This document shows, in pieces, positions 32,977-62,148 of a DNA stretch of 64,000 nucleotides (positions are counted from its first letter, which is position 1; the number at the start of each line of letters is the position of its first letter). The DNA lies in NCBI GenBank assembly GCA_028718185.1, contig JAQUMH010000002.1, forward strand, positions 4,088-68,087, given 5' to 3'. The translations under genes and the position numbers were made by a program. The notes under the pieces are model-generated. The model had not been told where the DNA came from and searched no databases. It saw only the letters and a list, made by a program, of their open reading frames with translations. This DNA is from Elusimicrobiota bacterium (GTDB taxonomy: Bacteria; Elusimicrobiota; UBA8919).

Positions 32977-32981
32977 AAAAA

Positions 32982-35262: not shown

Positions 35263-35285
35263 CGTTTATCAATTTTGCTTGGCAC

Positions 35286-47165: not shown

Positions 47166-47191
47166 TATTTGCTGAAGGAGAATAAAAAAAT

Positions 47192-50100: not shown

Positions 50101-50413
50101 GTTGAATTGCATTTATCAAGTCATCTTTCAATGTGCTGTTTTTTTTCTGAATCAAAATCGCTATATCTTCATTTGCTGTTTTTAAATAAATTATTTTTAG
50201 TATTATCTTCATAATAAATACTATTGAAAACACAATCATTACCAGCCATAGAGAGACTCTTAATGCATATGACGATAAATTAAAAATATCGGCAAAATAA
50301 TTTATAAACACAATAAAAAACAAGAATATGAAGATTTTTGTAATATTTTCAACAATATACAAAAACATTATCCTCTTCTTTGTCTTTGATATTAAATTAT
50401 TTATATTATCCAT
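47192..50413 (-). CDS. DUF4175-family membrane protein with a very long coiled-coil/low-complexity region (terminal member of the Bat-associated cluster)
   Basis: 1073 aa. Two N-terminal TM segments are followed by DIAILIQKKNSTLKDDLINAIQL, a K/E/Q-rich centre and the C-terminal ...YETIIKDYFKRLIE. Confidence 0.6.
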   Translation of the reverse strand: MDNINNLISKTKKRIMFLYIVENITKIFIFLFFIVFINYFADIFNLSSYALRVSLWLVMIVFSIVFIMKIILKIIYLKTANEDIAILIQKKNSTLKDDLINAIQLKNNKYSETSSLFAEEFVRITSSKISKDLLKKFTDFKPLKNIIIVFLIFLVNFALFFNSLQLKRYLIPFLSAMEIAVLPGDISVNLGSDVNIRAVVKPDKSTPYLYFREANSEWHKKKMKKTGKGEYAEAIEKITDNTEYYVVVLDNKSHKYDVKITSPFTIADIKLEYIYPSYIGLPDKIVEESDIEAPVGTTVKITAQTNKKAKEAFLITDMNEKNKMDISKNLITSQFVIQNQTEYWIEAVSIDGDIYRQPVKYKVSVTKNSPPVIEIVAPACDIIVSENEKLKIIYSAEDDFGISEINIDYLTLKKQVKIKSFIKPTQKILDDYEISVADLGLKPGDVIQYRLEVADNNIYPAHLTGNSKTYSIEVMSYEMEHKIIEDEISDFNRKLQEILSRQLQSRTSLAKRDIENAANMQKNAQELMNKATDEFSKTVEKMANDPLTDYNAYSEYKNLLEAAKTIGEQKMNEAEDSLSNKQYDNAERVQDEIIEELKRLGVFSEDIAKKQKMEDMLSTVRDMADTSSDIEQNLKDMKNFSDPEKMKKLQEANEKLSKLMEELSKKVSEMPQKLPEDFANDENVKKIDLTEMRSAADEMKWSLQSGNIDKAIELAEKLSKQISDILNTMENSSNSTTSSAQQKLQKETEESLNDLDKIVEEQRKILNSTQELDMQRAKKILSLQKELLKKLVEKQKLAMSRLNDSKTIIEKSTTTHPSVFNLYVQPETQMGIVLKEFTDEKIEKSNELLITIIAELENISKNVNIKKSAEYVLSSKTIEQEILNELKKFAPPKTSIFTENDLEKHNQLSKTQKLNQKQAQLLHKKVLGILSKTLSIPSDAAKKILSSQEAMGSASDELSNANDPSAVDFEKKALNDLLSGKEGLEGALSQMGQASSMGGKGSMGMGGKFRTRGNRGNKEGGYTGFREGFVKIPSIDEYKPPKEFRESIIESLRQKYPQKYETIIKDYFKRLIE

Positions 50414-50447: not shown

Positions 50448-52292
50448 CTATTTTATTAATTTCCCCTTTGCTATTTCAAGATACTTTTTTGCTTCACTGT
50501 TATTTGGATTATTTTTAATTACAGTTTGTAATTCAACAATAACTTTCTTCCAATCGCTTTTTTGCCAATATAAAATTGCGAGCTCATAATGTACATCTGT
50601 ATAATTTGGATTTAAACGTAAAGCCTCTTTGAATTCTTTTATTGCAGCATCAGTGTTGTTAACGCGGGGGAACATTCTGCCTAGATTAAAATGAATATCA
50701 GCATTATTTGTCATATCATAAACAAATATAGAATACCCTATTTTATCTACAGGTTCGTATTTTTTTAACCAATCGAAAGCATGAATATCACCTAAATATA
50801 AACCTTGCAGATAAGTGGCACTTACAGCTAAAAGATTCTGTCCCTTTTTATTTACATAATCAACTTCCGGAGAACAGACAGGCGTTAGTATATGCTGTCC
50901 CTTTAGTCCATAGTACATTGAGTCACCTTGTCCAAAATAACACTCTACTAAATTTGCCGGTTTTACTTTATCAATATATTTTTTAAGACCCTTTAAATCC
51001 TGCCCCCAGTCAAGATTTGATTCTACAACATATTTCCACCCGTTCTTTGGTCCGCCGATAAACTCATTAAAATATGCCAGATGATGAGGGAATATACGTA
51101 CAGCCGAATAAAGATACCACAGACAAAGAAATAACACTGCCATTTTTTTTACTATCTTGCTATTTGCATTAACTGCGTTAAAAACATTAACCACACTTCC
51201 TGCCAATACAAAAAGGAACGGGTAAACAGGCAGTATATATCTTAATCCTAATTGTGTTTGACTTTTAGATGCACTAACAAAAAATATAAATGCCGGAAGA
51301 AAAACAAATATTTCATCATTATTCCACAAGCATTTCATATGCTTGTGGCTTATTTTTATCAAACTCCAAAACAACAATATTATAAATGGAACCGGCGTTT
51401 TTATTAAAAATGCTATTATAAAATAATACCACCAACCGCCTGACGAATAGCTTCCCATTAGAAAATTAGGATTTCCTGCTTCTTTTGTTTTAACAATTAT
51501 AGATGAAAAAACGATACTTATTCCTTTAAAATATGAACCTATACCTGTCACCCTGTAGGATAATAAAATAACACAACATGCAATAATAACAGAACTTATC
51601 AATCTCCACCATTTTTTGTTTAATTTATTATATTCAAAACCTGCTAAAAGCATAAATACAGGAACAAGCACTATACTCGAGACTTTTGATACCTGAGCCA
51701 AACCAAAACAAAACCCTACTAATAAAGCATTTAACCAAGTTTGTTTTTTAGAAAATTTCCAGAAAAAATATACACTTAAAAATATAAAAACCGTTACCCC
51801 AAAATCCGTTGTTGCAATTCCAGAATGCGATATAATGTCAGCTGAGAAAGAATAAAGAAATAATGTCAATAACCCCGCCTTCACCCCATATAACCGGCTT
51901 GAAAATTTGAAAACAAAAAAACCCAGCAAAAGAGCCAGAATAAATATCGGTATTCTGCCAAGAAAAAGTATTTTATCAGCACTTGTTGTATTTTCATATA
52001 GGAACTTTTTTCCGTAAGCAAATAGTTCTCCGGCATTGTCTTTTAAATTTTCCGGAGGAAGAGGCGGAAGTTTTAATTTAAGCGGTAATAGAAAACTTGC
52101 AGATAACATTCTCAAAAAAGGCGGATTATTCGGTGCAAAACTAAAATCCCCTGTTTTTAAATTATAATACCCTACAGCTAAATAATGCGGTTCGTCATAA
52201 ACCGGGCATTTCGTCCATGGACCAAATGCAACCTGGAGTCCAAAAACAATAAAAAGAAACATAATAATCAGCAATTCAATCTTTCTATTCAT
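50448..52292 (-). CDS. GT-C fold glycosyltransferase, family 39 (ArnT/PMT-like) with C-terminal TPR repeats
   Basis: 614 aa. A first-loop acidic motif (YDEPHY) is followed by about 11 TM segments. The C-terminal TPR region includes AIKEFKEALRLNPNY..HYELAILYW. Confidence 0.65.
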   Translation of the reverse strand: MNRKIELLIIMFLFIVFGLQVAFGPWTKCPVYDEPHYLAVGYYNLKTGDFSFAPNNPPFLRMLSASFLLPLKLKLPPLPPENLKDNAGELFAYGKKFLYENTTSADKILFLGRIPIFILALLLGFFVFKFSSRLYGVKAGLLTLFLYSFSADIISHSGIATTDFGVTVFIFLSVYFFWKFSKKQTWLNALLVGFCFGLAQVSKVSSIVLVPVFMLLAGFEYNKLNKKWWRLISSVIIACCVILLSYRVTGIGSYFKGISIVFSSIIVKTKEAGNPNFLMGSYSSGGWWYYFIIAFLIKTPVPFIILLFWSLIKISHKHMKCLWNNDEIFVFLPAFIFFVSASKSQTQLGLRYILPVYPFLFVLAGSVVNVFNAVNANSKIVKKMAVLFLCLWYLYSAVRIFPHHLAYFNEFIGGPKNGWKYVVESNLDWGQDLKGLKKYIDKVKPANLVECYFGQGDSMYYGLKGQHILTPVCSPEVDYVNKKGQNLLAVSATYLQGLYLGDIHAFDWLKKYEPVDKIGYSIFVYDMTNNADIHFNLGRMFPRVNNTDAAIKEFKEALRLNPNYTDVHYELAILYWQKSDWKKVIVELQTVIKNNPNNSEAKKYLEIAKGKLIK

Positions 52293-52303
52293 ATATTAAG
52301 AAA

Positions 52304-52396
52304 CACGAATTATCACGAATGTTATGACACATCACGAATTTATCACGAATATTCGTATCCTATTCGTGATTTTTTGGTTATTCGTGTTCATTCGTG
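52304..52396. repeat. ~93-nt imperfect palindrome built from 4 direct CACGAAT units and 4 inverted ATTCGTG units, symmetric about 52350/52351
   Basis: CACGAAT is at 52304, 52314, 52333 and 52344. ATTCGT(G) is at 52351, 52362, 52380 and 52390. The central ACGAATATTCGT is a perfect 12-nt palindrome. The last unit supplies the final codons (IHE-stop) of the 726-aa ORF. Confidence 0.8.
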
Positions 52397-54568
52397 TATT
52401 TGAGCGTTTTTCCTTGCCATGTAAAGATATTTCTGGGCATCGATATTGTTTGGATTGATTTTTAGAGTTTTTTCAAGTTCTTCAATAACTTTATCCCATT
52501 TATTAAGACGCCAATATGCCACTGCCATATTATAGTGTGCATCCATATAATCGGATTTAATTTTGACTGCTTCGTTATATTCGGAAATAGCTTCATTAGT
52601 TTTGTTTTGTTTTTCATAAATAGTCCCAAGATTATTATAAACAATTGCCCAATCGTAAAGAATTGAATCAACCACTTCCGGAAAAGACTTATATTCAATT
52701 GCATCATTGTACATTTTTGTATAATATTTTATTGATTCCTTATAGTAATACTCGGTTTTTTCTAAATCATTTTTTTGATAATAAAGCCAGCCGAGATTAT
52801 AATATATAGAAGGATAATCTTCTTTTATTGATATTGCTTCATTAAATTTTATTATTGCATCTTTTTCTTTATCTTCCCTCATAAAGAAAAGACCTGCTTT
52901 GAACAAAGAATCGGCATATTGTGAGATAATTTTCTGTGTAAAAAAATCCGGATATGCAGATGCATTGAGAACGCTTCTCTTTATGTAAAATTCCACAAAA
53001 TTAACCGGCTTATCAAATACTGTTTTTATATCTTTTACCTGAAAAACCAGCCCATAAGGATAAACATAATATTTCTGACCAAGCATTTCGTAATCTTCAA
53101 CATCACTTGTAAAACAGACATTCCTGTTTTTATTGAATATATAAAACTGGGAAAATGTATCCGGATTATTTAATGAAAAAACATCCGTATTTTTATATTT
53201 TTTTAACGTTTCCTGATACCATTTACTTCCCGAAAGTCCTTTTGCTATAACTGTAATATCATTACGTTTATTTTCCACATACTGTAAATACCATTCTGAA
53301 AAAACCTGAATATCTTCTCTTGATATAATTATTGAATTGGCCGGAAGAGACCTGAAAACGTTCCTTGCAAAATCGTATGCAGTAAAATTATTACGCATAT
53401 TTTGTTTACCTATATTTAATGTAAATAACCATATTGGAATTATTAAAAAAATAATAGAAACCGTTTTTAACTTTCGGGACACAAAATATATCCCGAAACC
53501 AAACCACAAAGCAAGCATTAAATCAGAAATTAAATAGTGCGGTTCCACAATTGCAAGTGCATACGGGTTAGGCGGCATTTTAGCAATTGTAATGAAAAAA
53601 GGTCCTGTGATAATGTAAATCATTAATGTTGATATCAAAAAATCCTTTTTTGCTTTATACAAATATAAAAATCCAAAAAATACTATCGGAATACCAATAA
53701 TGGTAAATAGATTAAAAGTTCTTTCTAAATAGACCTTCATTCCCGAGTAAAAAACATCACTGATTTTATATCTTGTGGAGATTAAATCCAATGTTTTCCC
53801 GTGCGTTTTACGGGTAATTGTATCCATTACTGTCTGTATATTATCGGGTTTATTCCAATTTAGATATGGCTGAGTTTTTGACCTTGCAGGCAAAAATGCA
53901 AATATAGAAAAACCAAGAAAAAACAGAATTACATAAGTAATTATATTTTTAATTGAAAAAAGGTTTTGTATTTTACTCTTTACAACCCAATATAAAATCC
54001 CGGGAACAATTAAAATTATCTCAATACGGTTGCCTGTCGCTAGCCCTAACAGGAAAGAAACGAGTAACAAGTAACGAGTAGTGAGTAATAAATAAATTAT
54101 CAATACAATAAAAAAGATGTTTAGAGTATACATTTCCGCGACTACTGAAACAGACCATAAGGTCTTGGAAAAAGCAAAAATAAGAACAGGTAAGCAGGCG
54201 GATAATAAGAAAGCGGGATTGTGCGATTGTGGGATTGTGGAATAGAGAGAGTGCGGGATTGCGGGATTGTGGGATTGCGGGATAGAAAAAGAACAGGTCA
54301 ACTGCTTTATAATCAAATATATGATACTACAAGTTAAAGCGCCAAAAACAGCACTCATGCAGTTTACACGATAGGCTATATTTCCGAATGGAATTAAAAT
54401 TGTAAAGATTTTTCCAAGAACCACATATAACGGATACCCGGGCGGGTGAGCTATTCCATACTTGTAACAAACAGATACCATCTCTCCTGCATCACGATAG
54501 ATTGCAACCGACGGGAACAATGTATAAACAAACACCCAAAATGTTAATAAAAACAAGAAATAAATCAT
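52388..54568 (-). CDS. DUF2723 (TMEM260-like GT-C) membrane protein with C-terminal TPR repeats, paralog 1
   Basis: 726 aa. The N-terminus is YRDAGEM....GIAHPPGYPLYVVLGKIF...PFGNIAYRVNCMSAVFGALTC, followed by many TM segments and a TPR tail. Confidence 0.65.
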   Translation of the reverse strand: MIYFLFLLTFWVFVYTLFPSVAIYRDAGEMVSVCYKYGIAHPPGYPLYVVLGKIFTILIPFGNIAYRVNCMSAVFGALTCSIIYLIIKQLTCSFSIPQSHNPAIPHSLYSTIPQSHNPAFLLSACLPVLIFAFSKTLWSVSVVAEMYTLNIFFIVLIIYLLLTTRYLLLVSFLLGLATGNRIEIILIVPGILYWVVKSKIQNLFSIKNIITYVILFFLGFSIFAFLPARSKTQPYLNWNKPDNIQTVMDTITRKTHGKTLDLISTRYKISDVFYSGMKVYLERTFNLFTIIGIPIVFFGFLYLYKAKKDFLISTLMIYIITGPFFITIAKMPPNPYALAIVEPHYLISDLMLALWFGFGIYFVSRKLKTVSIIFLIIPIWLFTLNIGKQNMRNNFTAYDFARNVFRSLPANSIIISREDIQVFSEWYLQYVENKRNDITVIAKGLSGSKWYQETLKKYKNTDVFSLNNPDTFSQFYIFNKNRNVCFTSDVEDYEMLGQKYYVYPYGLVFQVKDIKTVFDKPVNFVEFYIKRSVLNASAYPDFFTQKIISQYADSLFKAGLFFMREDKEKDAIIKFNEAISIKEDYPSIYYNLGWLYYQKNDLEKTEYYYKESIKYYTKMYNDAIEYKSFPEVVDSILYDWAIVYNNLGTIYEKQNKTNEAISEYNEAVKIKSDYMDAHYNMAVAYWRLNKWDKVIEELEKTLKINPNNIDAQKYLYMARKNAQIHE
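54061..54095. repeat. 7-nt tandem units (CGAGTAA/CAAGTAA/CGAGTAG/TGAGTAA/TAAATAA) inside paralog 1, encoding part of a TM helix
   Basis: Read directly. A related array is at 56012-56053 in paralog 2. Confidence 0.6.
54213..54284. repeat. Nine consecutive 8-nt units (GCGGGATT/GTGCGATT/GTGGGATT...) in frame in paralog 1 (72 nt)
   Basis: The 8-nt register is kept over 54213-54284. It is translated as SIPQSHNPAIPHSLYSTIPQSHNPAF. Confidence 0.8.
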
Positions 54569-56529
54569 AATCTTTTTTTAGCTATTTCCAGATAATTTTT
54601 CACATCAGCTCTTTCCGGATTTATCTGTAAAACTTTTTCAAATTCTTCCACCACACCCTGCCAGTTTTTCATATCCCAGTATAAAGCTGCTAAACTATAA
54701 TGTGCATCTTCATAATTTGGGAATATTTCAATGGCATTTTTAAACATTAATATCGCCGTATTTTTTTGATTAGTTTCAATATAATACTTTGATAATGTAA
54801 GATAATAAAAATAAGCTAAAATAGCATCACGAAACCTCGAATACTTTCCTCTTAATGCATAAATATAAGAAAAATCATGTTGAGGCATTTCCTTGTTAAG
54901 TGAATATAAAAGCCCTGCATTATAAAATTTCATATCACTGAAATAATCAGGATTTTCAGCTAAATAATAAGTGCTTTTCCCGCTATCTAAAATCATTTTT
55001 CTTTCAATCGGCAACCTAACCATCCGCCTTTCACTACCCTTAATCCAATAATACCTATCACCATATATGTTGGGAAAAACACTTGCATTACAGTCAAAAA
55101 CATCTACTGTCGGCCTTCTTTTTTCAACTATTTTCTGATATGCAAGAATAAATACAGATTCATCTGCTTTATCCAGAAAAAGCAATGAGTTATTTGAAAC
55201 AGTTTTCAAAATATTTTTGCCGAGGTCAAACGGGAAGAAATTGTATCTTAAATTGTTTCTTTGAAAGTTTGCCGAAAACTGGAAAACCAAAAATCCTGTT
55301 ATAAAAATATAAGCCACGAACGTGCAAACCGCTTTATGGTAAACCCAGGTTGTTTTATCGACTATATACTTTACCCCCATACCAATCCATATTGCGAATA
55401 TTATTACTGAAGGTATGTGAAAGGGTTCGAGCAGGTCTCTCGTAGAATCATCTACAGGTTTATTAGCCAAAAACATAAAAATTGGTCCAGAAAAAAAGAA
55501 GATTAAAAATAGAAACCAAAAATATTTCTTTTCTTTTTTATAATTATAAATAAAACCGGTAATTCCTAAAATAGATCCAAAGACAGTAAATGAATCTACG
55601 ATATTTTTAATATATTCCCAAAGCTGCTGCATCAGCAGAGGCAGGGGTCTAAATAAATATCCCCCTTTCTCTTCAATATGCATTACACCGCCGTATCCTA
55701 TCCTGAAAACTACTCTTAAAAAATTTATAAACTTACCGGGATTGTCCCAATTGGCTATCGGATTTTGGCGGGAACGAATAAACAAATATAAATATAGTGA
55801 AAAACCAAGTAAAAAAAATAGCGTCCAATGTCCGATGTCCCTGCCCCGTGGCAAGGCGGGCGATGTCCAATGTCTTAAAGGTTTATTTTGAACTGAGTTT
55901 GCTCCGCTCAAAACAGGATACTTAGGACTTTGGAGTATTAAATATAACATACCGGGAAATAAAAGTACTAGTGTATGGTGGTTACAAAGCCCTAAACCGA
56001 ATAAGAAAGAAATGAGTAACGAGTAACGATTAACGAGTAATAAATAAATAATCAATATGACAAAAAACGCGTTTAATGTGTATATCCCGCCTTTTGTCTG
56101 GACACATTGAGACCAAAATATATTAGAAAAAGCTAAGAAAAAGGCGGATAAGAAAGCGGGAAAGCGGGAAAGTGGGAAAGCGGGATTGTGCGATTGAGAG
56201 ATAGCGGAATCGTGGGATTGTGCGATTGTGGGATTGTGGGATAGAGGGTCAGCGGACGAGCTGGTAAGATGCTTCATTAACAAATACATTATACCGCAGG
56301 TTAATGCTCCGAAAAAGACGCTCATGCAATTTACACGATATGCTATGTTTCCATAAGGGATTAAAATTGTAAATATCTTCCCAAGCAACACATACAACGG
56401 ATATCCCGGCGGGTGACTAATACCCAAAACGTACGAAGAAGTTATAAGTTCGCCACTATCGCCTGTACATACAGTAGGTGAAGAAGTGAATAGTAATATT
56501 CCTAAGTTTATCAAAAATACTATTATCAT
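54565..56529 (-). CDS. DUF2723 (TMEM260-like GT-C) membrane protein with a short C-terminal TPR region, paralog 2
   Basis: 654 aa. The N-terminus is TGDSGELITSSYVLGISHPPGYPLYVLLGKIF..PYGNIAYRVNCMS. There are 4-nt overlaps with both neighbours. Confidence 0.65.
   Translation of the reverse strand: MIIVFLINLGILLFTSSPTVCTGDSGELITSSYVLGISHPPGYPLYVLLGKIFTILIPYGNIAYRVNCMSVFFGALTCGIMYLLMKHLTSSSADPLSHNPTIAQSHDSAISQSHNPAFPLSRFPAFLSAFFLAFSNIFWSQCVQTKGGIYTLNAFFVILIIYLLLVNRYSLLISFLFGLGLCNHHTLVLLFPGMLYLILQSPKYPVLSGANSVQNKPLRHWTSPALPRGRDIGHWTLFFLLGFSLYLYLFIRSRQNPIANWDNPGKFINFLRVVFRIGYGGVMHIEEKGGYLFRPLPLLMQQLWEYIKNIVDSFTVFGSILGITGFIYNYKKEKKYFWFLFLIFFFSGPIFMFLANKPVDDSTRDLLEPFHIPSVIIFAIWIGMGVKYIVDKTTWVYHKAVCTFVAYIFITGFLVFQFSANFQRNNLRYNFFPFDLGKNILKTVSNNSLLFLDKADESVFILAYQKIVEKRRPTVDVFDCNASVFPNIYGDRYYWIKGSERRMVRLPIERKMILDSGKSTYYLAENPDYFSDMKFYNAGLLYSLNKEMPQHDFSYIYALRGKYSRFRDAILAYFYYLTLSKYYIETNQKNTAILMFKNAIEIFPNYEDAHYSLAALYWDMKNWQGVVEEFEKVLQINPERADVKNYLEIAKKRL
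55821..55874. repeat. GTCCAAT/GTCCGAT 7-nt units flanking a GC segment, in frame in paralog 2
   Basis: GCGTCCAATGTCCGATGTCCCTGCCCCGTGGCAAGGCGGGCGATGTCCAATGTC was read directly. It is the reverse-complement vocabulary of the GACATTG array at 62100-62134. Confidence 0.65.
56152..56247. repeat. Twelve consecutive 8-nt units (4x GAAAGCGG-type, then GATTGTGC/GATTGTGG-type) in frame in paralog 2 (96 nt)
   Basis: The register is kept over 56152-56247. It is translated as ADPLSHNPTIAQSHDSAISQSHNPAFPLSRFPAF. Confidence 0.8.
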
Positions 56530-58787
56530 TTTTTTAGTATTGCCAGATACTTTTTTGCTTCGGAATGAGCAGGATTAAGCTGTAATACAGTTTCAAATTC
56601 TTCAACAACACCTTTCCAGTATTTTATTTTCCAATAAGCAACACCCAGATTATAGTGTGCATCAACATAATAGTATTTTAGCGATATTGCTTTTTTATAT
56701 TCGGATAATGCTGCTTCATTTTGATTTGTCTTCTCATACAAAACACCAAGATAACAATGCGGTTCCGCAAGCTCCGGACTTGCTTCCGAAGATTTCATAT
56801 AATCGTCTTTTGCTTCTTCATATTTATTTATTTGGAATTTTTCATACCCCCTTGTCAAATAAATAAATGCAAGATTATTCCTGATGTTTTCATCGTAGGG
56901 ATTTATTTCAATACCTTTTCTATATCTTACAATTGCCTCTTCAATAAATCCTTTTTCTTTGAGTGAAATTCCGATATTATTATAAACCCATTCTACATCT
57001 CCGCCGTTTTGTCCGGCTTTATCATATTCTTTTAACATTTCATCATTTTTCTTGTCTTTATAATATTTTTCAGCAAGAAAATAGTGGTATTGCGAAGAAA
57101 CATCTCTCAAAAGGTATTCACTTAAATAATTTTTATTATCTATACCACGAGTTACATATACCTGCCACAAATCATAATTAACGTTCAGCGGTTTTGCTTT
57201 ATATATTATTCCTGAAATATCAGATTTGACATCCCTTAAATTTGAAAAACTACTACCTAACGAAAAACATATAGGTCTTGCTTGTTTTAATAGTTCTCTT
57301 TGAACATACTCCCTTCTTTCCTGCTTTTGTTCTTTTGTAAGTTGAAAGAAATCATCACCATAAACATTCTTAAATAAAAGTCCGGTATCGGTATAAAAAG
57401 AAACATCTAACCGTTTTTTTAGGCACCATTGCTGGTAAGACAGAAGAAACATCTGATTATCACCTGAAGAGAAAAAATGTGAATTTTTGGGAAGAGACTT
57501 TATAATATTTGAAGAATAATCATATGCTACAAAATTATTTCTTTTGCTATTATAATTAAAATTCATAATGACAGGTAAAATCAAAAGGCAGGAAAATAAA
57601 GAAAGTTTTAAATATTCAGAAGGTTCCCCCCTAGTTTTGTCTAACGATAAAACTGGCAGGGGGGTACTTTTTTTGAATTTATTAAAGGTAAAAATGCGAA
57701 AAAAGTAAAAAAAGCCAATCCCTAGCCAAATAGCCATAACGGTATAGGCAGGTAGATAATAAACTTCTACAACGGATGTTTGCTGCGGATTGAATTGAAA
57801 TCTTAAAATAAAGATTAGACCTAAACCGTTTAATAAAAATAATCCTACAGTAAGAATACATATTTTTTTACACGATTTATAAAATTTTATTAAACCAAAC
57901 AATACAAAAGGTAACATATAATATGTGAATTGTTCACCTGCAAGTTTAAAATAATGTTTTATAAACAACAACTTTGTCGAAAATGTAACTTTTTGTCCGA
58001 ATTCATATGATTTATATTGAACACGCCTGATATGTGCTATAAAATTATGCAATGTTCCTGTATTTCCCTGATTCATTAGAGGATTTTCCAAAGACCGGAC
58101 AGGCATAGATACCAGAATCGTCAAAGCCAGCAATATAAAAAATATACAAATAATAATATTAGCAAAAGGTTTATTTTTCCCAAAGAGATTCTTCCAGTAA
58201 AAAACTAAAAATGCAATTAGCAATAATCCGGAAATATAATGTCCTGCTATGCTTAATCCCGCAATAAAAGAAAACAAATAAATATTTTTATTTTTCAATA
58301 CTGATATATAGATAAGTAATACAATAAAAAACGAAGTTAGGGTATATATACCGCCTTTAGCTATAACACTTTGCGACCAGAAAGTTTTAGAAAAAGCTAA
58401 AAATAACGCAGGAAGACAGGCGAATAAGAAAGTGGGATTGTGGGATTGTGGGATTGTGGGATAGCGGAATAGCGAAGCAGAAGATGAGGAGATAAGCTGT
58501 TTCATAACCAAATACACAATTCCGCATGTTAATGCGCCGAAAACGGCGCTCATTATGTTTAATCTATATGCAATATTTCCGTAAGGTATTATGAATGTAA
58601 ATATTTTTCCAAGCAATACATACAATGGATACCCGGGCGGATGAGTAATACCCAAAGTATATGCCGCAGTTGCAAATTCTCCGCTATCACCCACATAAAC
58701 TGTAGGGCATAATGTTATTAGATATATCCCTAATGATAATAAATACACTAAAATCATTGCAGACCGCTTCTCCTTCGTAAAAACCAT
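56526..58787 (-). CDS. DUF2723 (TMEM260-like GT-C) membrane protein with extended C-terminal TPR repeats, paralog 3
   Basis: 753 aa. The N-terminus is VGDSGEFATAAYTLGITHPPGYPLYVLLGKIF..PYGNIAYRLNIMSAVFGALTC, with a long TPR tail. Confidence 0.65.
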   Translation of the reverse strand: MVFTKEKRSAMILVYLLSLGIYLITLCPTVYVGDSGEFATAAYTLGITHPPGYPLYVLLGKIFTFIIPYGNIAYRLNIMSAVFGALTCGIVYLVMKQLISSSSASLFRYPTIPQSHNPTFLFACLPALFLAFSKTFWSQSVIAKGGIYTLTSFFIVLLIYISVLKNKNIYLFSFIAGLSIAGHYISGLLLIAFLVFYWKNLFGKNKPFANIIICIFFILLALTILVSMPVRSLENPLMNQGNTGTLHNFIAHIRRVQYKSYEFGQKVTFSTKLLFIKHYFKLAGEQFTYYMLPFVLFGLIKFYKSCKKICILTVGLFLLNGLGLIFILRFQFNPQQTSVVEVYYLPAYTVMAIWLGIGFFYFFRIFTFNKFKKSTPLPVLSLDKTRGEPSEYLKLSLFSCLLILPVIMNFNYNSKRNNFVAYDYSSNIIKSLPKNSHFFSSGDNQMFLLSYQQWCLKKRLDVSFYTDTGLLFKNVYGDDFFQLTKEQKQERREYVQRELLKQARPICFSLGSSFSNLRDVKSDISGIIYKAKPLNVNYDLWQVYVTRGIDNKNYLSEYLLRDVSSQYHYFLAEKYYKDKKNDEMLKEYDKAGQNGGDVEWVYNNIGISLKEKGFIEEAIVRYRKGIEINPYDENIRNNLAFIYLTRGYEKFQINKYEEAKDDYMKSSEASPELAEPHCYLGVLYEKTNQNEAALSEYKKAISLKYYYVDAHYNLGVAYWKIKYWKGVVEEFETVLQLNPAHSEAKKYLAILKK
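57626..57664. repeat. Hairpin module CCCCCCTAGTTTTGTCtaacGATAAAACTGGCAGGGGGG in frame in paralog 3
   Basis: It has the same design as the intergenic module at 47083-47125. It is translated as TPLPVLSLDKTRGEP. Confidence 0.7.
58432..58475. repeat. GTGGGATT x3 perfect plus 2-3 degenerate 8-nt units, in frame in paralog 3
   Basis: Units begin at 58432, 58440, 58448, 58456 and 58464. It is translated as ..RYPTIPQSHNPTF. Confidence 0.8.
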
Positions 58788-60808
58788 TCAATTGAAAGTA
58801 ATATAATTAGAAGAATATAGATTATAGGCTTATTCCAAATATTTATTTCATATAAAAGATCTGACTGTGTTGTCCGTGGCTTAATCTCTAGTTTATTAAA
58901 ATTAAACTCTTCAATTGACATAAATTTGCCATTAGTCAAATCTGCTACTTCTTTCATAAACGGTTCATTAACAAAATTTGATTCTAATTCTTTTGAGACG
59001 TCAAAAACATTTAAGGATATGTTATCATTTCCCAAAAATTTCTTATTATAATACGCCTGCGCTTCTAACTTATACTCGCCTGCTAAATTAATTTCAGTGC
59101 TAAACTCATACTCGCCATTCTCAATTCCCGGAGGGACAGCAATAGATTCTTTTTTACCGTCAGGTGTTTGTATTCTTACACTTACAATTGCATTATCTAC
59201 GGGTTTAAAGTATTCATCCTTTACTCGCATTTTTATCTTTGCAATATCGCCTATATTATAGTTATTTTTTGCTATTATAGCCACCTGTTTCATTGATGCG
59301 GCATTCGTCAACCATTTTATTGACTGTCCGAAAAACTTTACGTAATTATATGAGTTATCGCTACCAAGCGCCAAGCGCCACATAGATGGAGTAAGAATAC
59401 ACATAACCCTGCCTTTATCTTTTTCTTTAATTGTAATAACCGGATATTTTGATTTTTCGGTTTCAGCAAGAACAATGGTTTTTTCTCTGACTGCAGCAAT
59501 ATTTACACTATCCAGTTCCGGCATGTTTTTCCAGATAGCATCATTAGAAACCGGGTCATCTACGAGTCTCATTATGCCATGTTCGGGGTGCAAAACGTTT
59601 AATCCATATTTAGCCGATGAAATATCAGAAGACGGGGTTATCGGTAAAATTTCATTAATCGGCGTGTTTTGATATATGTCCAATGGCACTTCCCCGCCGA
59701 TTATTAAAAGTGCTTTGCCGTATTCAGTAACAAAATTTTTAATATTCATAAGATACTGTGTGCTGATAGGAAATTTAAAAAAATTAAAATTATCAAATAT
59801 AAGCAAATCAAAGTTAAAGATTTCCCTTGAAAATATTTCTTCAACAGGAAAAGGAATAAGCGAAAGCTCGTTATCTGATACAGCAACAACATTTTCAGGA
59901 TTTCGCAATATTACAAACGATACAAGTTCAACATTGGGATTATTTTTAAGAGTGTTCCTCAGGAAAGAATAATTAAATGACGGCTGCCCGCAAAGATATA
60001 AAATACGTATTTTTTCCGGTTCAACATTCAGGACAAACTTTTTCTTATTATCCGAAAAATCTTTTTCCCCCTCATAAGTAGGTATTTCAATTACATAAGA
60101 AACCGAACCAGCTTCTTCAGGTATAACTTCAAAAGGGACTTCGAATACACCGTTGTTTTCAATATCCAATATTTTAGTTTGCAAAACGATTTTATTGCTG
60201 GTTTTAAGAAAAATTGATATTTTTTTACCTATAAAACCGGTGCTGTTTATATTCGCGACAATTGTAGTGTTAACATTTCTAAAAACAATATCCGGTACTT
60301 CAACATTACCAATTGAGATATTTTTCTGTAGATTAGAAATTTCCGGAATAACAGCAAAAACAGGTATTTTCAAATCACCCAGCTCGCTTAACACTTCTTT
60401 TGAATCTTTATTGATATTTTGATTCCCATCTGAAAATAAAATTATACTATCAATATCTTTGCCTATAAAATCAGTTTTTATCTTTTCTAATGCTCCGGTT
60501 ATATCCGTTTTCTTCCCTTTAGATTTCAATGATTCTACTTCTTTTTCAGAAACATTCCTTATATTATCTGAAAATGCAAAGAAGAACGGTTTAACTTTGT
60601 TATTTTTAACAAGTTGCAAATTTACCTTACTTTTTATTTGTTCAAAACCTTTTTGACTTATATATCCCATGCTTTGAGAATCATCGATTAAAGCAATAAC
60701 CGTAGGAATATTTCTTTTTTTATATACCTTTTTAACCGGCTGAAAAACAAGCAGAATTATAACTATAAATATCAGTATCCTTAAAATCAAAAGTATTTTC
60801 TTTATCAT
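58754..60808 (-). CDS. Membrane-anchored vWA-like / GATase1-like protein of the Bat-associated cluster
   Basis: 684 aa. An N-terminal TM is followed by VIALIDDSQSMGY (a DxSxS MIDAS-like motif). The central RILYLCGQPSFNYSFLRNTL resembles the DUF1355/GATase1-like block. There is a C-terminal TM. Confidence 0.5.
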   Translation of the reverse strand: MIKKILLILRILIFIVIILLVFQPVKKVYKKRNIPTVIALIDDSQSMGYISQKGFEQIKSKVNLQLVKNNKVKPFFFAFSDNIRNVSEKEVESLKSKGKKTDITGALEKIKTDFIGKDIDSIILFSDGNQNINKDSKEVLSELGDLKIPVFAVIPEISNLQKNISIGNVEVPDIVFRNVNTTIVANINSTGFIGKKISIFLKTSNKIVLQTKILDIENNGVFEVPFEVIPEEAGSVSYVIEIPTYEGEKDFSDNKKKFVLNVEPEKIRILYLCGQPSFNYSFLRNTLKNNPNVELVSFVILRNPENVVAVSDNELSLIPFPVEEIFSREIFNFDLLIFDNFNFFKFPISTQYLMNIKNFVTEYGKALLIIGGEVPLDIYQNTPINEILPITPSSDISSAKYGLNVLHPEHGIMRLVDDPVSNDAIWKNMPELDSVNIAAVREKTIVLAETEKSKYPVITIKEKDKGRVMCILTPSMWRLALGSDNSYNYVKFFGQSIKWLTNAASMKQVAIIAKNNYNIGDIAKIKMRVKDEYFKPVDNAIVSVRIQTPDGKKESIAVPPGIENGEYEFSTEINLAGEYKLEAQAYYNKKFLGNDNISLNVFDVSKELESNFVNEPFMKEVADLTNGKFMSIEEFNFNKLEIKPRTTQSDLLYEINIWNKPIIYILLIILLSIEWFLRRRSGLQ

Positions 60809-60857: not shown

Positions 60858-60950
60858 GAGATTGCTTCGCTAACGCCTACCTACCGTCATGCAGGCTCAC
60901 AATGACAAATCTGCCTGTCATTGCGAACTGACTCATCGTGAAGCAATCTC
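60858..60950. repeat. Family A palindromic element (with nested CCTACCTACCGTCATGCAGG hairpin) abutting and overlapping the GIY-YIG stop codon
   Basis: GAGATTGCTTCGC...CACAATGAC is at 60858-60905 and GTCATTGCGAAC...GAAGCAATCTC at 60917-60950. Both were read directly. Confidence 0.8.
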
Positions 60951-61251
60951 ATAAGTTATTATACAAATCAGTCCACCTTGAATTCATAATTTCAACTAAC
61001 TTAATTTTCTTATTTCTTGAACCCGCTTTTATTTGTTTTTCTCTGCTTATTGCATCTACTGGATTTTCAAAAACTTCATAATAAACAAGTTTATTAATGT
61101 TGTATTTTTCAGTGAAACCTTTTACAATTTTATTTTTATGTTCATAAACTCGCTTTTTTAAGTTGCTTGTTATTCCCGTATAAAGAACTGTATTGTTCTT
61201 GTTTGTTAAAATATAAATTGAATAATACTTTTTCATTTGAGATTGCCCCAT
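60949..61251 (-). CDS. GIY-YIG nuclease superfamily protein (small UPF0213/COG2827 type)
   Basis: 100 aa. Motifs YSIYILTNKNNTVLYTGITSNLKKRVYEH, NKLVYYE and REKQIK. Confidence 0.8.
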   Translation of the reverse strand: MGQSQMKKYYSIYILTNKNNTVLYTGITSNLKKRVYEHKNKIVKGFTEKYNINKLVYYEVFENPVDAISREKQIKAGSRNKKIKLVEIMNSRWTDLYNNL

Positions 61252-61353: not shown

Positions 61354-62148
61354 TCATCTTAGTTTGTTTTGTATAAATGATTTGTGTATGCTGTCGGACT
61401 TGTATGTACCGGTTAAAGCATACATTATAATATTAAGTGTTAATTTCTTGGCTTCCCACCTCTGCTGTTCTTCGCAAGGATAAATATAATTACCAAGATT
61501 GTCTTTTTCCCATGCACCTAATAAATCATTCTGTGAGTATATAATGCTATAGCGTTCACCTATTTTGCAGCCTTCCAAATATCTATTTACAACAATTCTT
61601 CCTGATGTATTTTTTAACAAGTAAAAAGATTTAAATATTGCATCGTTCATAGGTATTTTTTCAAGCGGATTTTCAGAAAGCAGTTTTGCAATAGTAGTCC
61701 TAATTAACTTGTCAAACCCAAAACCTTTTTTACCTGATGAATCATCAATAAAAATCATTCCACCACCTTGTATATACTTTTTAAGCATCTTTAACTCATT
61801 ATCCGTCAATTGCGGAAAATCAGAGTCACCTGTAATTACAATAAAGGGCGACCAGAAAAGTTCCTCTTCTGTTATCCTGATAATCCGCCTCTGCGGCACA
61901 ACCTTCACGCTTGTTGTCATGACCAGGTATTCCGAAATTCTATCCCATGCTGTTTGCCGCATATCCCATTTACCCGCATATTGCAGCTGGCTAAAAACAA
62001 ATTTGCCCCCTTGCTGGCAGTAAAGATTGTCCGAAGTCCAAAGTCCGAAGTCCGAAGTCAATAAAACCATAACAAAAATAAATATGAACCATTTAGCATG
62101 ACATTGGACATTGGACATCGGACGTTGGACATTTTTTTTATTTATCAT
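61354..62148 (-). CDS. DUF4159 domain protein (Bat-associated cluster)
   Basis: 264 aa. After the signal region, FVFSQLQYAGKWDMRQTAW and GGMIFIDD fit the DUF4159 pattern. It overlaps the upstream vWA gene by 4 nt. Confidence 0.55.
   Translation of the reverse strand: MINKKNVQRPMSNVQCHAKWFIFIFVMVLLTSDFGLWTSDNLYCQQGGKFVFSQLQYAGKWDMRQTAWDRISEYLVMTTSVKVVPQRRIIRITEEELFWSPFIVITGDSDFPQLTDNELKMLKKYIQGGGMIFIDDSSGKKGFGFDKLIRTTIAKLLSENPLEKIPMNDAIFKSFYLLKNTSGRIVVNRYLEGCKIGERYSIIYSQNDLLGAWEKDNLGNYIYPCEEQQRWEAKKLTLNIIMYALTGTYKSDSIHKSFIQNKLR
62038..62134. repeat. Two 7-nt tandem arrays in the 5' end of the DUF4159 ORF: GTCCGAA-type x5 (62038-62072) and GACATTG-type x5 (62100-62134)
   Basis: Read directly. 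They are translated as ..LTSDFGLWTSD.. and ..NVQRPMSNVQC... Confidence 0.8.

What the first reader, a model, noticed from the sequence alone, without database searches (positions are those of the whole stretch)
50448..58787. Four tandem GT-C + TPR proteins, three of them TMEM260-like (DUF2723): candidate protein O-glycosyltransferases for Ig-like surface proteins
Seen in sequence: three consecutive paralogs share the N-terminal block (D/G)(S/A)GE......G(I/V)(A/T/S)HPPGYPLYV.LGKIF...P(F/Y)GNIAYR.N.MS. All carry C-terminal TPR repeats of different lengths. A fourth protein is GT39/ArnT-like with a YDEPHY loop plus TPR.

Established knowledge: DUF2723 is the family of human TMEM260, which was reported to be a protein-specific O-mannosyltransferase acting on IPT/Ig-like domains. 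GT39 enzymes are lipid-carrier-dependent protein or lipid glycosyltransferases.

Inference: the genome encodes very large Ig-like-domain proteins only ~12 kb away (20398-38510). These enzymes may therefore form a paralog-diversified, substrate-specific surface-protein glycosylation system. The TPRs would act as substrate-recognition modules.
Basis: partly seen in the sequence, partly recalled or inferred. Interest (0 to 1): 0.55.

Follow-up and report, generated by a model that had tools for sequence, protein, structure and literature searches.

The report
Conserved four-gene membrane glycosyltransferase cassette
Four neighbouring genes in an Elusimicrobia genome encode membrane sugar-transferases, three of them clear relatives of the human protein O-mannosyltransferase TMEM260; they form an old, conserved cassette, but nothing ties them to the giant surface proteins nearby.

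Summary
Window 50448-58787 (minus strand) holds four tandem GT-C genes. Three are TMEM260/DUF2723 paralogs with TPRs (T1, T2, T3). One is a PMT_2/GT39-type enzyme with a YDEPHY loop and a short TPR. NCBI already names them this way.

The three paralogs match solved human TMEM260 and keep five of its six tested functional residues, including the catalytic-base Asp. Both AlphaFold models are confident and fit the GT-C fold.

New here:
- The order T3-T2-T1-PMT_2 is an old cassette. Each paralog has its own ortholog at 52-67% identity, against about 36% between paralogs.
- In at least seven related Elusimicrobia genomes the cassette sits inside a MoxR-DUF58-BatA/vWA-DUF4159-GATase1-like-DUF4175 operon. 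One relative has the same operon without it. A distant lineage has the cassette outside any such operon.
- Paralogs share a conserved N-terminal donor/catalytic region that undergoes gene conversion, but differ strongly in the periplasmic acceptor-binding domains.

The proposed link to the Ig-like giant proteins is not supported: unrelated genes intervene, and there is no IPT/TIG domain and no TMEM260 sequon.

An unexplained extra: 7-8-nt tandem-repeat cassettes encode a fast-changing cytoplasmic loop in these genes.

Verdict: new members of a known kind; moderate interest.

The parts
50448..52292 (-). PMT_2/GT39-type GT-C glycosyltransferase (614 aa) with a YDEPHY first periplasmic loop and a C-terminal TPR (about residues 531-612)
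52388..54568 (-). T1: TMEM260/DUF2723-family GT-C with a Rossmann-like domain and TPRs (726 aa)
   Evidence: PF11028 E=3.2e-33 plus TPRs. Orthologs at 55-67% identity in related MAGs. D26, H41, R253 and D419 are invariant among the three paralogs. Mapping T3 onto the human chain equates them to human D52, H67, R264 and D441. T1 has His where human has Y267.
54565..56529 (-). T2: TMEM260/DUF2723-family GT-C with a Rossmann-like domain and a short TPR (654 aa)
   Evidence: PF11028 E=1.1e-34 plus about 2 TPRs. Its start overlaps the T3 stop and its stop overlaps the T1 start by 4 nt each. Orthologs at 52-58% identity, some without TPRs.
56526..58787 (-). T3: TMEM260/DUF2723-family GT-C with a Rossmann-like domain and TPRs (753-aa ORF; probable true start at 58757, giving 743 aa)
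   Evidence: PF11028 E=1.2e-32. phmmer against solved human TMEM260 9rql_A E=8.4e-25; profile E=2.8e-95. AF2 pLDDT 92.7, pTM 0.92. T3 D34, H49, R255, Y258 and D443 align to human D52, H67, R264, Y267 and D441.
58754..60808 (-). Upstream operon gene: 684-aa membrane-anchored GATase1-like protein; its stop overlaps the probable T3 start
   Evidence: PF07090 E=1.9e-6, YtkA/MG2-like Ig domain. Orthologs at 56-63% identity lie immediately upstream of T3 in relatives. Hydrophobic segments at both ends.
47192..50413 (-). Downstream operon gene: 1073-aa DUF4175 membrane protein, 34 nt after the PMT_2 gene
   Evidence: PF13779 E=3.9e-26. Orthologs at 52-59% identity lie immediately after the PMT_2 gene in relatives. 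In L012 it lies 13 nt after the GATase1-like gene, which marks the empty site.
61354..62148 (-). Operon gene: DUF4159 protein (264 aa) with a signal-anchor flanked by two heptamer arrays
   Evidence: PF13709 E=3e-36. Arrays (GTCCGAA)x4.4 at 62029-62059 and (GACATTG)x4.9 at 62100-62133 encode the N-terminal tail and the post-TM segment.
62145..64000 (-). Operon gene: BatA-N/vWA protein, cut off by the window end
   Evidence: VWA_2 E=1.1e-17. The frame stays open to the window end and encodes the double-TM BatA-type N-terminus. Orthologs of 643-648 aa follow MoxR and DUF58 in relatives.
58432..58462 (-). T3 loop array: (ACAATCCC) x3.9, perfect, encoding IPQSHNPT in the low-confidence loop (residues 101-120)
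   Evidence: TRF. The pattern occurs only in T1-T3: 14 matches against 0.52 expected. Translation. pLDDT 62-70 there.
56152..56242 (-). T2 loop arrays: (ACAATCCC) x7.6, degenerate, followed by (CCGCTTTC) x4.2
   Evidence: TRF; translation.
54215..54283 (-). T1 loop array: (ACAATCCC) x8.6, degenerate
   Evidence: TRF; translation.
52293..52387 (-). T1/PMT_2 intergenic region made of direct CACGAAT and inverted ATTCGTG heptamers; folds as a hairpin
   Evidence: Sequence. RNA fold -26.7 kcal/mol, z=-3.47, 0 of 200 shuffles as stable.

Best explanation
The region is a conserved four-gene cassette of lipid-carrier-dependent GT-C glycosyltransferases, in the order T3-T2-T1-PMT_2.

**Shown**
- T1-T3 are true members of the TMEM260 (DUF2723) family. 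Each has an N-terminal multi-helix GT-C membrane domain, a beta/alpha domain in the position of the human Rossmann-like domain, and C-terminal TPRs.
- They keep the human enzyme's donor-binding Asp and His, the phosphate-binding Arg and the catalytic-base Asp.
- The fourth enzyme is a PMT_2/GT39-type GT-C with the Asp-Glu first-loop motif.
- In this clade of Elusimicrobia the cassette lies in a MoxR-DUF58-BatA/vWA-DUF4159-GATase1-like-[cassette]-DUF4175 gene string. Three of the junctions are 4-nt ATGA overlaps.

**Inferred from the human mechanism**
- Each enzyme takes a sugar from a polyprenyl-phosphate-sugar donor at the periplasmic face of the inner membrane.
- It transfers the sugar to Ser/Thr of an extended segment of an exported polypeptide. 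The TPR 'fingers' and Rossmann-like 'palm' hold that segment.
- The three paralogs share a donor-binding/catalytic N-terminal region, kept alike by constraint and, in relatives, by gene conversion. Their acceptor-binding domains have diverged. So they probably put the same sugar on different acceptor sequences.
- The sugar, the donor synthase and the acceptors are unknown.
For: **Family membership**
- Pfam hits.
- Homology to solved human TMEM260: profile E=2.8e-95; single sequence E=8.4e-25 over residues 13-466.
- D52, H67, R264, Y267 and D441 equivalents are conserved. These residues are essential in the human enzyme.
- Confident models: pLDDT 92.7 for T3, with helices through about residue 413, then 5 strands with helices, then TPR helices; pLDDT 94.7 for PMT_2.

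**Cassette conservation**
- Same order with paralog-specific orthologs in L001/L010, L003, L006/L008, L009, L011, L013 and L014.
- Same order in the 50%-GC lineage L016, outside any MoxR operon.
- Empty site in L012.

**Module pattern**
- Regional identities.
- 90-99% DNA identity between same-genome paralogs over residues about 40-115, against 40-50% elsewhere.

**Operon coupling**
- 4-nt overlaps at GATase1-like/T3, T3/T2 and T2/T1; no convincing terminator between the genes.

**Precedent for GT-C plus TPR acting on proteins**
- Human TMEM260.
- P. aeruginosa TfpW, required for pilin glycosylation.
- Prokaryotic full-length TMTC-like proteins.
Against: - No activity, donor or acceptor is shown for any bacterial TMEM260 homolog. 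The 2023 paper notes only 'distant homologs in bacteria'.
- Human R355 is not conserved (Val or Pro), and T1 has His at the Y267 position.
- No polyprenyl-phosphate sugar synthase (GT2) gene was found among the annotated window ORFs.
- Many bacterial PMT_2-type GT-Cs modify lipids or glycans rather than proteins (own knowledge: ArnT, YfhO, GtrC types).
- Family members occur in many unrelated contexts, so context gives no single functional clue.
Confidence: 0.6

Rival explanations
1. One reading: the four enzymes are dedicated glycosyltransferases for the giant Ig-like surface proteins encoded about 12 kb away (20398-38510).
For: - Human TMEM260 modifies Ig-like IPT domains.
- The 4192-aa protein has many Ig-like/fn3 modules and is 20% Ser+Thr.
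- PorV and FlgD_ig genes lie 1-3 kb from a family member in Firestonebacteria.
- The C-terminus of a giant protein lies 9 kb from another paralog.
Against: - Ten annotated ORFs with no functional connection lie between the two loci.
- The cassette's conserved neighbours are MoxR-operon genes. In L016 they are a Na/H exchanger and PilZ.
- Pfam finds no IPT/TIG domain in the giant proteins.
- Neither the human sequon nor its core occurs in any window ORF.
- In the human enzyme, recognition is of an extended sequon, not of a folded Ig domain.
Confidence: 0.1
2. The cassette serves the surrounding MoxR/vWA ('Bat-like') system. It would glycosylate the periplasmic parts of the membrane-anchored operon products (BatA/vWA, DUF4159, GATase1-like, DUF4175), or help assemble their envelope complex.
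For: - The cassette sits between the GATase1-like and DUF4175 genes in at least seven genomes, with overlapping or closely spaced genes.
- All the flanking products have hydrophobic anchors and large extramembrane parts.
Against: - The same operon exists intact without the cassette in L012.
- The same cassette exists outside any such operon in L016.
- The topology of the flanking proteins is unresolved.
- No paper in the library describes this operon type.
Confidence: 0.2
3. The acceptors are not proteins. Some or all four enzymes would decorate envelope lipids or glycans (lipid A/LPS core, lipoglycans, polysaccharide), as ArnT-, YfhO- and Emb/Aft-type bacterial GT-Cs do.
For: - Most PMT_2 orthologs in the operon have no TPR.
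- Many bacterial PMT_2 proteins are annotated as ArnT-like.
Against: - T1-T3 keep the Rossmann-like-domain Asp that acts as base on the peptide hydroxyl in human TMEM260.
- They also keep peptide-binding-type TPRs.
- The strong divergence of these domains between paralogs fits varied polypeptide acceptors.
Confidence: 0.2
4. The 7-8-nt tandem arrays inside T1-T3 are slipped-strand phase-variation switches that turn individual glycosyltransferases on and off.
For: - The unit length is not a multiple of 3, and the arrays lie inside the ORFs at the same site in three paralogs.
- T3 and several relatives have perfect arrays.
- The window has 10 such arrays against 0 in 20 shuffles.
Against: - Copy numbers are low (about 4), and the T1 and T2 arrays are degenerate (75-77% matches).
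- Every allele seen is in frame.
- Near-identical contigs show the same copy number (L001, L002, L010).
- Length variants in the protein clusters come from start-site calls, not from the loop.
Confidence: 0.1

Closest known systems
Human TMEM260 (protein O-mannosyltransferase for IPT domains; PDB 9RQL/9RQM/9RQN)
   Same: - Homologous over the whole GT-C and Rossmann-like region (E=8.4e-25 single sequence; E=2.8e-95 profile).
- Same order of GT-C membrane domain, beta/alpha domain and TPR.
- D52, H67, R264, Y267 and D441 equivalents conserved.
   Different: - Bacterial, so the donor must be a bacterial polyprenyl-phosphate sugar of unknown identity.
- R355 is not conserved.
- Longer and variable TPR arrays.
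- Three diverged paralogs in tandem, plus a GT39-type partner.
- No IPT sequon in nearby proteins.
PMT/POMT (GT39) and ArnT (GT83) GT-C enzymes
   Different: - No MIR domain.
- A C-terminal beta-rich domain plus a 2-repeat TPR takes its place.
- Structure cannot tell a PMT-like protein acceptor from an ArnT-like lipid acceptor.
Eukaryotic TMTC1-4 and their prokaryotic full-length homologs (PMT_2-like GT-C plus TPR)
   Same: Same architecture: a PMT_2-type GT-C followed by TPRs. Such proteins are noted as widespread in poorly characterised prokaryotes (PMC7801869).
   Different: The window protein has only about 2 TPRs, and most of its orthologs have none. No orthology to TMTCs was tested.
Pseudomonas aeruginosa TfpW (GT-C with a periplasmic TPR, required for pilin glycosylation)
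   Same: A bacterial GT-C with 11 predicted TM helices and a periplasmic TPR. Pilin glycosylation depends on it.
   Different: It is Emb-like and adds D-arabinofuranose. It is encoded next to its substrate gene pilA. No sequence relationship was tested here.
Bat / MoxR-vWA 'aerotolerance' operons (Bacteroides, Leptospira)
   Same: The surrounding genes are MoxR, DUF58 and BatA-N/vWA.
   Different: - The classical Bat operon has free-standing TPR proteins (BatC/BatE; own knowledge).
- It has no GT-C genes.
- TPR matches to BatC here are far below the cut-off (27 against 175 bits).
Heptameric G-rich repeats of Xanthomonas/Nostoc, and in-frame palindromic elements of Rickettsia
   Same: - Short 7-nt-unit arrays with a preference for about four units (PMC4692102).
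- Repeat elements translated in frame inside genes (Rickettsia RPEs; own knowledge).
   Different: - The units here are very diverse and mostly not G-rich.
- The arrays come in pairs and sit inside coding regions.
- They are exchanged wholesale between close relatives.

Membership tests
TMEM260 / DUF2723 (PF11028) protein O-mannosyltransferase family | Significant match to the family's N-terminal model | tested here: met
   PF11028 E=3.2e-33 (T1), 1.1e-34 (T2) and 1.2e-32 (T3), each above the 24.2-bit cut-off.
TMEM260 / DUF2723 (PF11028) protein O-mannosyltransferase family | Sequence homology to the solved human enzyme across the GT-C and Rossmann-like domains | tested here: met
   phmmer of T3 residues 1-560 against 9rql_A: E=8.4e-25, residues 13-466 aligned to 31-464. 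Profile of 87 homologs: E=2.8e-95.
TMEM260 / DUF2723 (PF11028) protein O-mannosyltransferase family | Sugar-recognition-motif Asp (human D52) and His (H67) | tested here: met
   T3 D34 and H49 align to them. They are invariant in T1-T3 and at least 90% conserved in 87 homologs.
TMEM260 / DUF2723 (PF11028) protein O-mannosyltransferase family | Donor-loading-loop Arg (R264) and Tyr (Y267) | tested here: met
   T3 R255 and Y258. The Arg is invariant in T1-T3. The Tyr is present in T2 and T3; T1 has His.
TMEM260 / DUF2723 (PF11028) protein O-mannosyltransferase family | TMH10 Arg (R355; the human R355A mutant keeps about 20% activity) | tested here: not met
   Human VVERFW aligns to T3 VVEVYY, T1 IVEPHY and T2 LLEPFH. 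The Glu is kept; the Arg is replaced by Val or Pro.
TMEM260 / DUF2723 (PF11028) protein O-mannosyltransferase family | Catalytic-base Asp in the Rossmann-like domain (D441) | tested here: met
   T3 D443 aligns to D441. It is invariant in T1-T3 and at least 90% conserved in 87 homologs.
TMEM260 / DUF2723 (PF11028) protein O-mannosyltransferase family | Architecture: multi-pass GT-C membrane domain, then a five-stranded Rossmann-like domain, then TPRs | tested here: met
   In the AF2 model (pLDDT 92.7) helices run to about residue 413. Strands follow at 437-440, 463-466, 506-508, 523-525 and 528-530 with helices between them. TPR helices span 558-752. TM helices were not counted individually.
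TMEM260 / DUF2723 (PF11028) protein O-mannosyltransferase family | O-mannosyl transfer from a polyprenyl-phosphate-mannose donor to Ser/Thr of a protein | not testable with these tools
   Needs biochemistry or glycoproteomics. No donor-synthase gene was found among the annotated window ORFs.
TMEM260 / DUF2723 (PF11028) protein O-mannosyltransferase family | Acceptors carry the IPT-domain sequon P-x5-P-x3-G-P-x2-[GA]-G-G-x2-[ST] | tested here: not met
   No match to the full sequon or to its core in any of 36 window ORFs. Pfam finds no TIG/IPT domain in the giant proteins. Bacterial enzymes may use other sequons.
GT39 / PMT_2 (PF13231) GT-C glycosyltransferases | Match to the PMT_2 model | tested here: met
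   E=7.8e-11, 42.9 bits against a 26.1 cut-off. NCBI name 'glycosyltransferase family 39 protein'.
GT39 / PMT_2 (PF13231) GT-C glycosyltransferases | Acidic Asp-Glu motif in the first extracytoplasmic loop | tested here: met
   YDEPHY at residues 32-37, directly after TM1. D33 and E34 are at least 90% conserved in 86 homologs.
GT39 / PMT_2 (PF13231) GT-C glycosyltransferases | GT-C fold | tested here: met
GT39 / PMT_2 (PF13231) GT-C glycosyltransferases | Luminal MIR domain of eukaryotic PMT/POMT | tested here: not met
   No MIR family among the Pfam hits at E<=0.01. So this is a bacterial PMT_2-type enzyme, not a canonical PMT.
MoxR-vWA ('Bat-like') operon | MoxR AAA+ ATPase, DUF58 and BatA-N/vWA genes in one string with the region | tested here: met
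   The window holds BatA-N/vWA, DUF4159, GATase1-like and DUF4175 genes. MoxR and DUF58 lie upstream in the syntenic relatives L001, L003, L006 and L012. They are beyond the window end here.
Phase-variable contingency locus | Copy-number polymorphism or frameshifted alleles at an intragenic repeat tract | tested here: inconclusive
   Tracts with 7-8-nt units are present. All alleles seen are in frame, and near-identical contigs have equal copy numbers. Too few population data.

The most novel reading that the evidence does not exclude
The paired 7-8-nt tandem-repeat cassettes are a so-far undescribed kind of in-frame, fast-turnover sequence element in Elusimicrobiota.

**What they do**
- They encode the cytoplasmic TMH2-TMH3 loop and the start of TMH3 in these glycosyltransferases.
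- They also encode the signal-anchor flanks of the DUF4159 protein.

**How they behave**
- They are swapped wholesale between orthologs in the same 90%-identity cluster.
- They spread between tandem paralogs by gene conversion.
- Some form hairpins of -36 to -40 kcal/mol inside the mRNA.

**What that could mean.** They could be mobile mini-elements or a programmed variation or regulation device for membrane-protein genes.

A second novel reading is that the GT-C cassette is a dedicated glycosylation module of the uncharacterised MoxR/BatA/DUF4175 envelope system.
Probability: 0.2. Interest if true: 0.65.

Novelty: new member of a known kind. Interest (0 to 1): 0.4.

Why it matters
**An untested family.** Bacterial TMEM260 homologs form a large family, with 8,189 cluster representatives at E<=1e-10. 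I found no experimental study of a bacterial member. The one paper in the library that mentions them notes only 'distant homologs in bacteria'.

**What this locus offers.** It has three paralogs with a shared catalytic region and diverged acceptor-binding domains, plus a GT39-type partner. There are also natural 'with' and 'without' genomes for the same operon.

**What could be tested with it**
- Whether TMEM260-type O-glycosylation of extended polypeptides predates eukaryotes.
- How TPR and Rossmann-like modules set acceptor specificity.
- Whether there is any link to the poorly understood MoxR/vWA envelope operons.

**Limits.** None of this overturns current knowledge, and the enzymes are already correctly named in public annotation.

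**Side finding.** The tandem-repeat cassettes are odd. If real as a mechanism, they would interest people who study genome plasticity.

Tried and rejected
- **Exact look-up of the 753-aa T3 ORF:** not on record. The recorded protein, P0001, has 743 aa.
- **Foldseek of the T3 model against PDB:** dominated by TPR proteins, and 9RQL did not appear among the matches. Only PglB and STT3 show the GT-C part. Homology to TMEM260 therefore rests on sequence.
- **NCBIfam:** only sub-threshold TPR matches, and nothing for the flanking operon proteins.
- **PDB sequence search with the PMT_2 protein:** TPR hits only.
- **Genome scan with the DUF4175 alignment:** only 9 loci, because the derived patterns were too specific. 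The one non-Elusimicrobia locus, L015 (Brocadiia), was uninformative. So the spread of the operon and cassette outside this clade was not measured.
- **Literature on DUF4175 and DUF4159:** only an unrelated partial-domain case, A. baumannii AdvA.
- **Promoter and terminator scans:** counts no higher than in shuffles.
- **Hairpin idea for the window's own T-gene arrays:** rejected, with folding energy about 0.
- **Recent tandem duplication as the origin of the three paralogs:** rejected, because each paralog has its own ortholog across genomes.
- **Repeat-length polymorphism in protein clusters:** the length differences came from start-codon calls.
- **Metagenome scan for repeat-number alleles:** not run. 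The T3 cluster has a single member from one NCBI contig, so no variants were expected.

Full report
**1. Observation**

The window is AT-rich (about 30-39% GC), and all 36 ORFs of at least 150 aa lie on the minus strand.

At the stated coordinates there are four consecutive ORFs:
- 50448-52292: 614 aa.
- 52388-54568: T1, 726 aa.
- 54565-56529: T2, 654 aa.
- 56526-58787: T3, 753 aa.

Pfam results:
- T1, T2 and T3 each match TMEM260-like PF11028 at E=1e-33 to 1e-35.
- Each also carries C-terminal TPR families of different extent.
- The fourth protein matches PMT_2 PF13231 at E=7.8e-11, above the curated cut-off, and has TPRs at residues 531-612.

The paralogs are about 36% identical overall.

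The YDEPHY loop follows the first transmembrane helix of the fourth protein. Its Asp-Glu pair is nearly invariant in 86 homologs.

- T3 probably starts at 58757. That ATG overlaps the upstream stop as ATGA. NCBI's protein has 743 aa against the 753-aa ORF.
- The first motif is D(S/A)GE.
- The proteins are already annotated at NCBI as 'DUF2723 domain-containing protein' and 'glycosyltransferase family 39 protein' in an Elusimicrobia MAG with a 301-kb contig.

**2. What the proteins are**

*Homology to human TMEM260*
- A profile of 87 homologs matches solved human TMEM260 (9RQL) at E=2.8e-95.
- T3 residues 1-560 alone match it at E=8.4e-25, over residues 13-466 against 31-464.

*What the human structure shows.* The cryo-EM paper (bioRxiv 10.64898/2026.03.17.711096) describes:
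- an 11-helix GT-C 'wrist' that binds dolichyl-phosphate-mannose;
- a Rossmann-like 'palm' carrying the catalytic base D441;
- TPR 'fingers' that bind an extended acceptor peptide.

In that work D52, H67, R264, Y267 and D441 are essential. The R355A mutant keeps about 20% activity.

*Residue mapping*

| Human residue | T3 equivalent | Conservation |
|---|---|---|
| D52 | D34 | invariant in T1-T3 |
| H67 | H49 | invariant in T1-T3 |
| R264 | R255 | invariant in T1-T3 |
| Y267 | Y258 | Tyr in T2 and T3; His in T1 |
| D441 | D443 | invariant in T1-T3 |
| R355 | Val | Pro in T1 and T2; not conserved |

The Asp, His, Arg and catalytic Asp are also at least 90% conserved across the 87 homologs.

*T3 model.* The AlphaFold model is confident (pLDDT 92.7, pTM 0.92). 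It shows, in order:
- membrane helices up to about residue 413;
- five strands with intervening helices;
- TPR helices.

*Family size.* The TMEM260-like family is large: 8,189 cluster representatives at E<=1e-10 for the non-TPR part of T3.

**3. Surroundings and relatives**

*The operon.* The conserved context is not the giant-protein locus. In related Elusimicrobia MAGs the gene string is:

MoxR - DUF58 - BatA-N/vWA - DUF4159 - GATase1-like (about 683 aa) - T3 - T2 - T1 - PMT_2 - DUF4175 (about 1,070 aa)

This is seen in L001/L010, L003, L006/L008, L009, L011, L013 and L014.

The window shows the same string from BatA-N/vWA onward, with that gene cut by the window end. Gene spacing in the window is tight:
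- 4-nt overlaps at GATase1-like/T3, T3/T2 and T2/T1;
- a 95-nt gap between T1 and PMT_2;
- a 34-nt gap between PMT_2 and DUF4175.

No convincing terminator lies between the genes.

*Age of the triplication.* Each paralog has its own ortholog at 52-67% identity, while paralogs within a genome are about 36% identical. So the triplication is old, not a recent tandem duplication.

*Two natural controls.* These are the most informative comparisons.
- L012 has the whole operon but no cassette. Its GATase1-like gene is followed after 13 nt by DUF4175, and no GT-C gene lies within 10 kb.
- L016 comes from a 50%-GC lineage whose RimO is closest to Elusimicrobiota proteins. It has T3-like, T2-like, T1-like and PMT_2-like genes in the same order. 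There they lie between a Na/H exchanger gene and PilZ plus a methyltransferase-GT2 gene, with no MoxR operon.

So the four-gene cassette is the conserved unit. Its residence in the MoxR operon is a feature of one clade.

*Other contexts.* Other family members lie in unrelated settings.

**4. How the paralogs differ**

Identities by region:

| Region (T3 numbering) | Same-genome paralogs | Orthologs in other genomes |
|---|---|---|
| Residues 1-95 | 67% | 78% |
| Residues 146-420 | 30% | 64% |
| Rossmann-like domain | 22% | 73% |
| TPRs | 31% | 63% |

At the DNA level, same-genome paralogs in several relatives reach 90-99% identity over residues about 40-115. The rest of the gene is 40-50% identical. 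That is a clear gene-conversion tract over the donor-binding region. In the window genome the same segment is 72-79% identical.

The pattern is a shared sugar-binding and catalytic N-terminal region with diverged acceptor-binding domains.

**5. Most likely mechanism**

*Shown:* family membership, conserved functional residues, domain order, cassette conservation and operon embedding.

*Inferred by homology:*
- Each enzyme takes a monosaccharide from a polyprenyl-phosphate sugar at the periplasmic face.
- It transfers the sugar to Ser/Thr in an extended stretch of an exported polypeptide held by the TPR and Rossmann-like domains.
- The three paralogs recognise different acceptor sequences.

*Unknown:* the sugar, the donor synthase and the acceptors. 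No donor-synthase gene was found among the annotated window ORFs.

I put about 0.6 on protein O-glycosylation.

*Rivals:*
- Lipid or glycan acceptors, most plausible for the PMT_2 enzyme: 0.2.
- Operon-encoded membrane proteins as the specific substrates: 0.2.
- The neighbouring giant Ig-like proteins as the specific substrates: 0.1.

The two substrate guesses sit within the protein-acceptor reading.

**6. The Ig-like protein link**

The giant proteins exist, but the link is weak:
- Ten annotated ORFs with no functional connection separate them from the cassette.
- Pfam finds no IPT/TIG domain in them.
- Neither the human sequon nor its core occurs in any window ORF.
- The human enzyme reads an extended sequon, not a folded Ig domain.

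Two loose proximities exist elsewhere. They are not more than chance would give in genomes rich in such proteins.

**7. An unexplained feature inside the genes**

*In the window*
- The loop at T3 residues 101-120 has low model confidence.
- By homology it lies between TMH2 and TMH3, on the cytoplasmic side.
- In all three window paralogs it is encoded by tandem copies of the octamer ACAATCCC: 3.9 perfect copies in T3, and 7.6 and 8.6 degenerate copies in T2 and T1.
- The pattern occurs nowhere else in the window: 14 matches against 0.52 expected.

*In relatives*
- The same site holds quite different, genome-specific pairs of 7-8-nt arrays.
- These pairs are shared among the paralogs of a genome. 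The gene-conversion tract explains that.
- The T3 orthologs P0003 (707 aa) and P0250 (718 aa) sit in one 90%-identity cluster. They are 86% identical in a global alignment that includes a 10-residue difference in the called start, yet they carry entirely different cassettes.
- The first array encodes a polar, charged loop. The second encodes the start of TMH3.

*Abundance*
- The window has 10 arrays of period 7 or 8 with at least 3 copies, against 0 in 20 dinucleotide shuffles.
- The 315 kb of window plus related loci holds 78 such arrays, mostly of about 4.4 copies.

*A dispersed, hairpin-forming example*
- The pair (GTCCGAA)n + (GACATTG)n occurs in L009 T1-T3 and in L011 T2.
- It also occurs, inverted, around the signal-anchor coding segment of the window's DUF4159 gene at 62029-62133.
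- It folds as a long hairpin: z=-6.7 to -8.0 in the relatives, and -4.8 in the window copy.
- The window's T-gene arrays do not fold.

*Phase variation*
- All alleles seen are in frame.
- I found no copy-number polymorphism.
- Phase variation is therefore neither supported nor excluded.

*Precedent.* Heptameric repeats with a preference for four units are known in Xanthomonas and Nostoc. Those are G-rich and mostly intergenic (PMC4692102).

**8. Comparison and novelty**

- The enzymes are new members of known kinds: the TMEM260 family and PMT_2/GT39-type GT-Cs.
- GT-C plus TPR enzymes are known in eukaryotes (TMEM260, TMTC1-4).
- In bacteria, TfpW is one experimentally studied case.
- Full-length prokaryotic homologs have been noted before.

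New here are:
- the conserved 3+1 cassette;
- its clade-specific insertion in a MoxR/BatA/DUF4175 operon, with a natural empty site;
- the shared catalytic region with diverged acceptor domains, and the gene conversion behind it;
- the repeat-encoded hypervariable loop.

Interest is moderate (0.4). It is a good experimental entry point into bacterial TMEM260-type glycosylation, but not a surprise to a specialist.

Noticed in passing
window 54215-54283, 56152-56242, 58432-58462 (also 54055-80 and 56014-40); L001, L003, L009 and L011 at the same site: The cytoplasmic TMH2-TMH3 loop of all three TMEM260-like paralogs is encoded by tandem 7-8-nt repeats. The repeats are genome-specific but shared among the paralogs of a genome. 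Orthologs in the same 90%-identity cluster carry entirely different repeat cassettes.
   Followed up: partly
window 62029-62059 and 62100-62133 (5' end of the DUF4159 gene): (GTCCGAA)x4.4 and (GACATTG)x4.9 flank the segment that codes for the signal-anchor helix. The same heptamer pair forms the T-gene loop in L009 and L011, in the opposite orientation. It folds as a long hairpin (z -4.8 here; -6.7 to -8.0 there). DUF4159 genes of L001, L003, L006 and L012 have other arrays at the same place.
   Followed up: partly
window 1006-1072, 9452-9480, 35124-35151: More short arrays with 7-8-nt units lie in intergenic DNA and at the 5' end of the PorV-like gene. The window has 10 such arrays (TRF score at least 40) against 0 in 20 shuffles. 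The 9452-9480 array is weaker (score 35) and is not among the ten.
   Followed up: partly
window 52293-52387 (between T1 and the PMT_2 gene): The 95-nt spacer is built of direct CACGAAT and inverted ATTCGTG heptamers and folds as a hairpin (-26.7 kcal/mol, z -3.5). It could be an internal regulatory or processing site in the operon.
   Followed up: partly
window 60949-61251: A 100-aa GIY-YIG nuclease-domain gene sits between the DUF4159 and GATase1-like genes. In L001, L003 and L006 those two genes overlap, so this looks like an insertion specific to this genome.
   Followed up: no
L012 7939-13318: A related Elusimicrobiota MAG has the complete MoxR-DUF58-BatA-DUF4159-GATase1-like-DUF4175 operon with only 13 nt where the 8.3-kb GT-C cassette sits in the window. 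This is a natural empty site.
   Followed up: yes
L016 8001-16484: A 50%-GC contig, probably from a distant Elusimicrobiota lineage, carries T3-like, T2-like, T1-like and PMT_2-like genes in the same order but outside any MoxR operon. PilZ and a methyltransferase-GT2 fusion gene follow; the fusion might make the lipid-linked donor.
   Followed up: partly
window 20398-38510: The 4192-aa protein ends in FlgD_ig/CHU_C-type domains and lies next to a PorV-like gene (34261-35262). This suggests a type IX-like sorting system for giant surface proteins in this Elusimicrobium. A PorV plus FlgD_ig pair also lies near a TMEM260-like gene in Firestonebacteria (L019).
   Followed up: no
window 47095-47195 (between the DUF4175 and CpXC genes): A strong GC-rich hairpin (-34 kcal/mol, z -5.7) without a clear U-tail. 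It may mark the 3' end of the operon.
   Followed up: no
L009 8301-10002: The PMT_2 ortholog is split into two overlapping ORFs. This is either a frameshift or a sequencing error.
   Followed up: no
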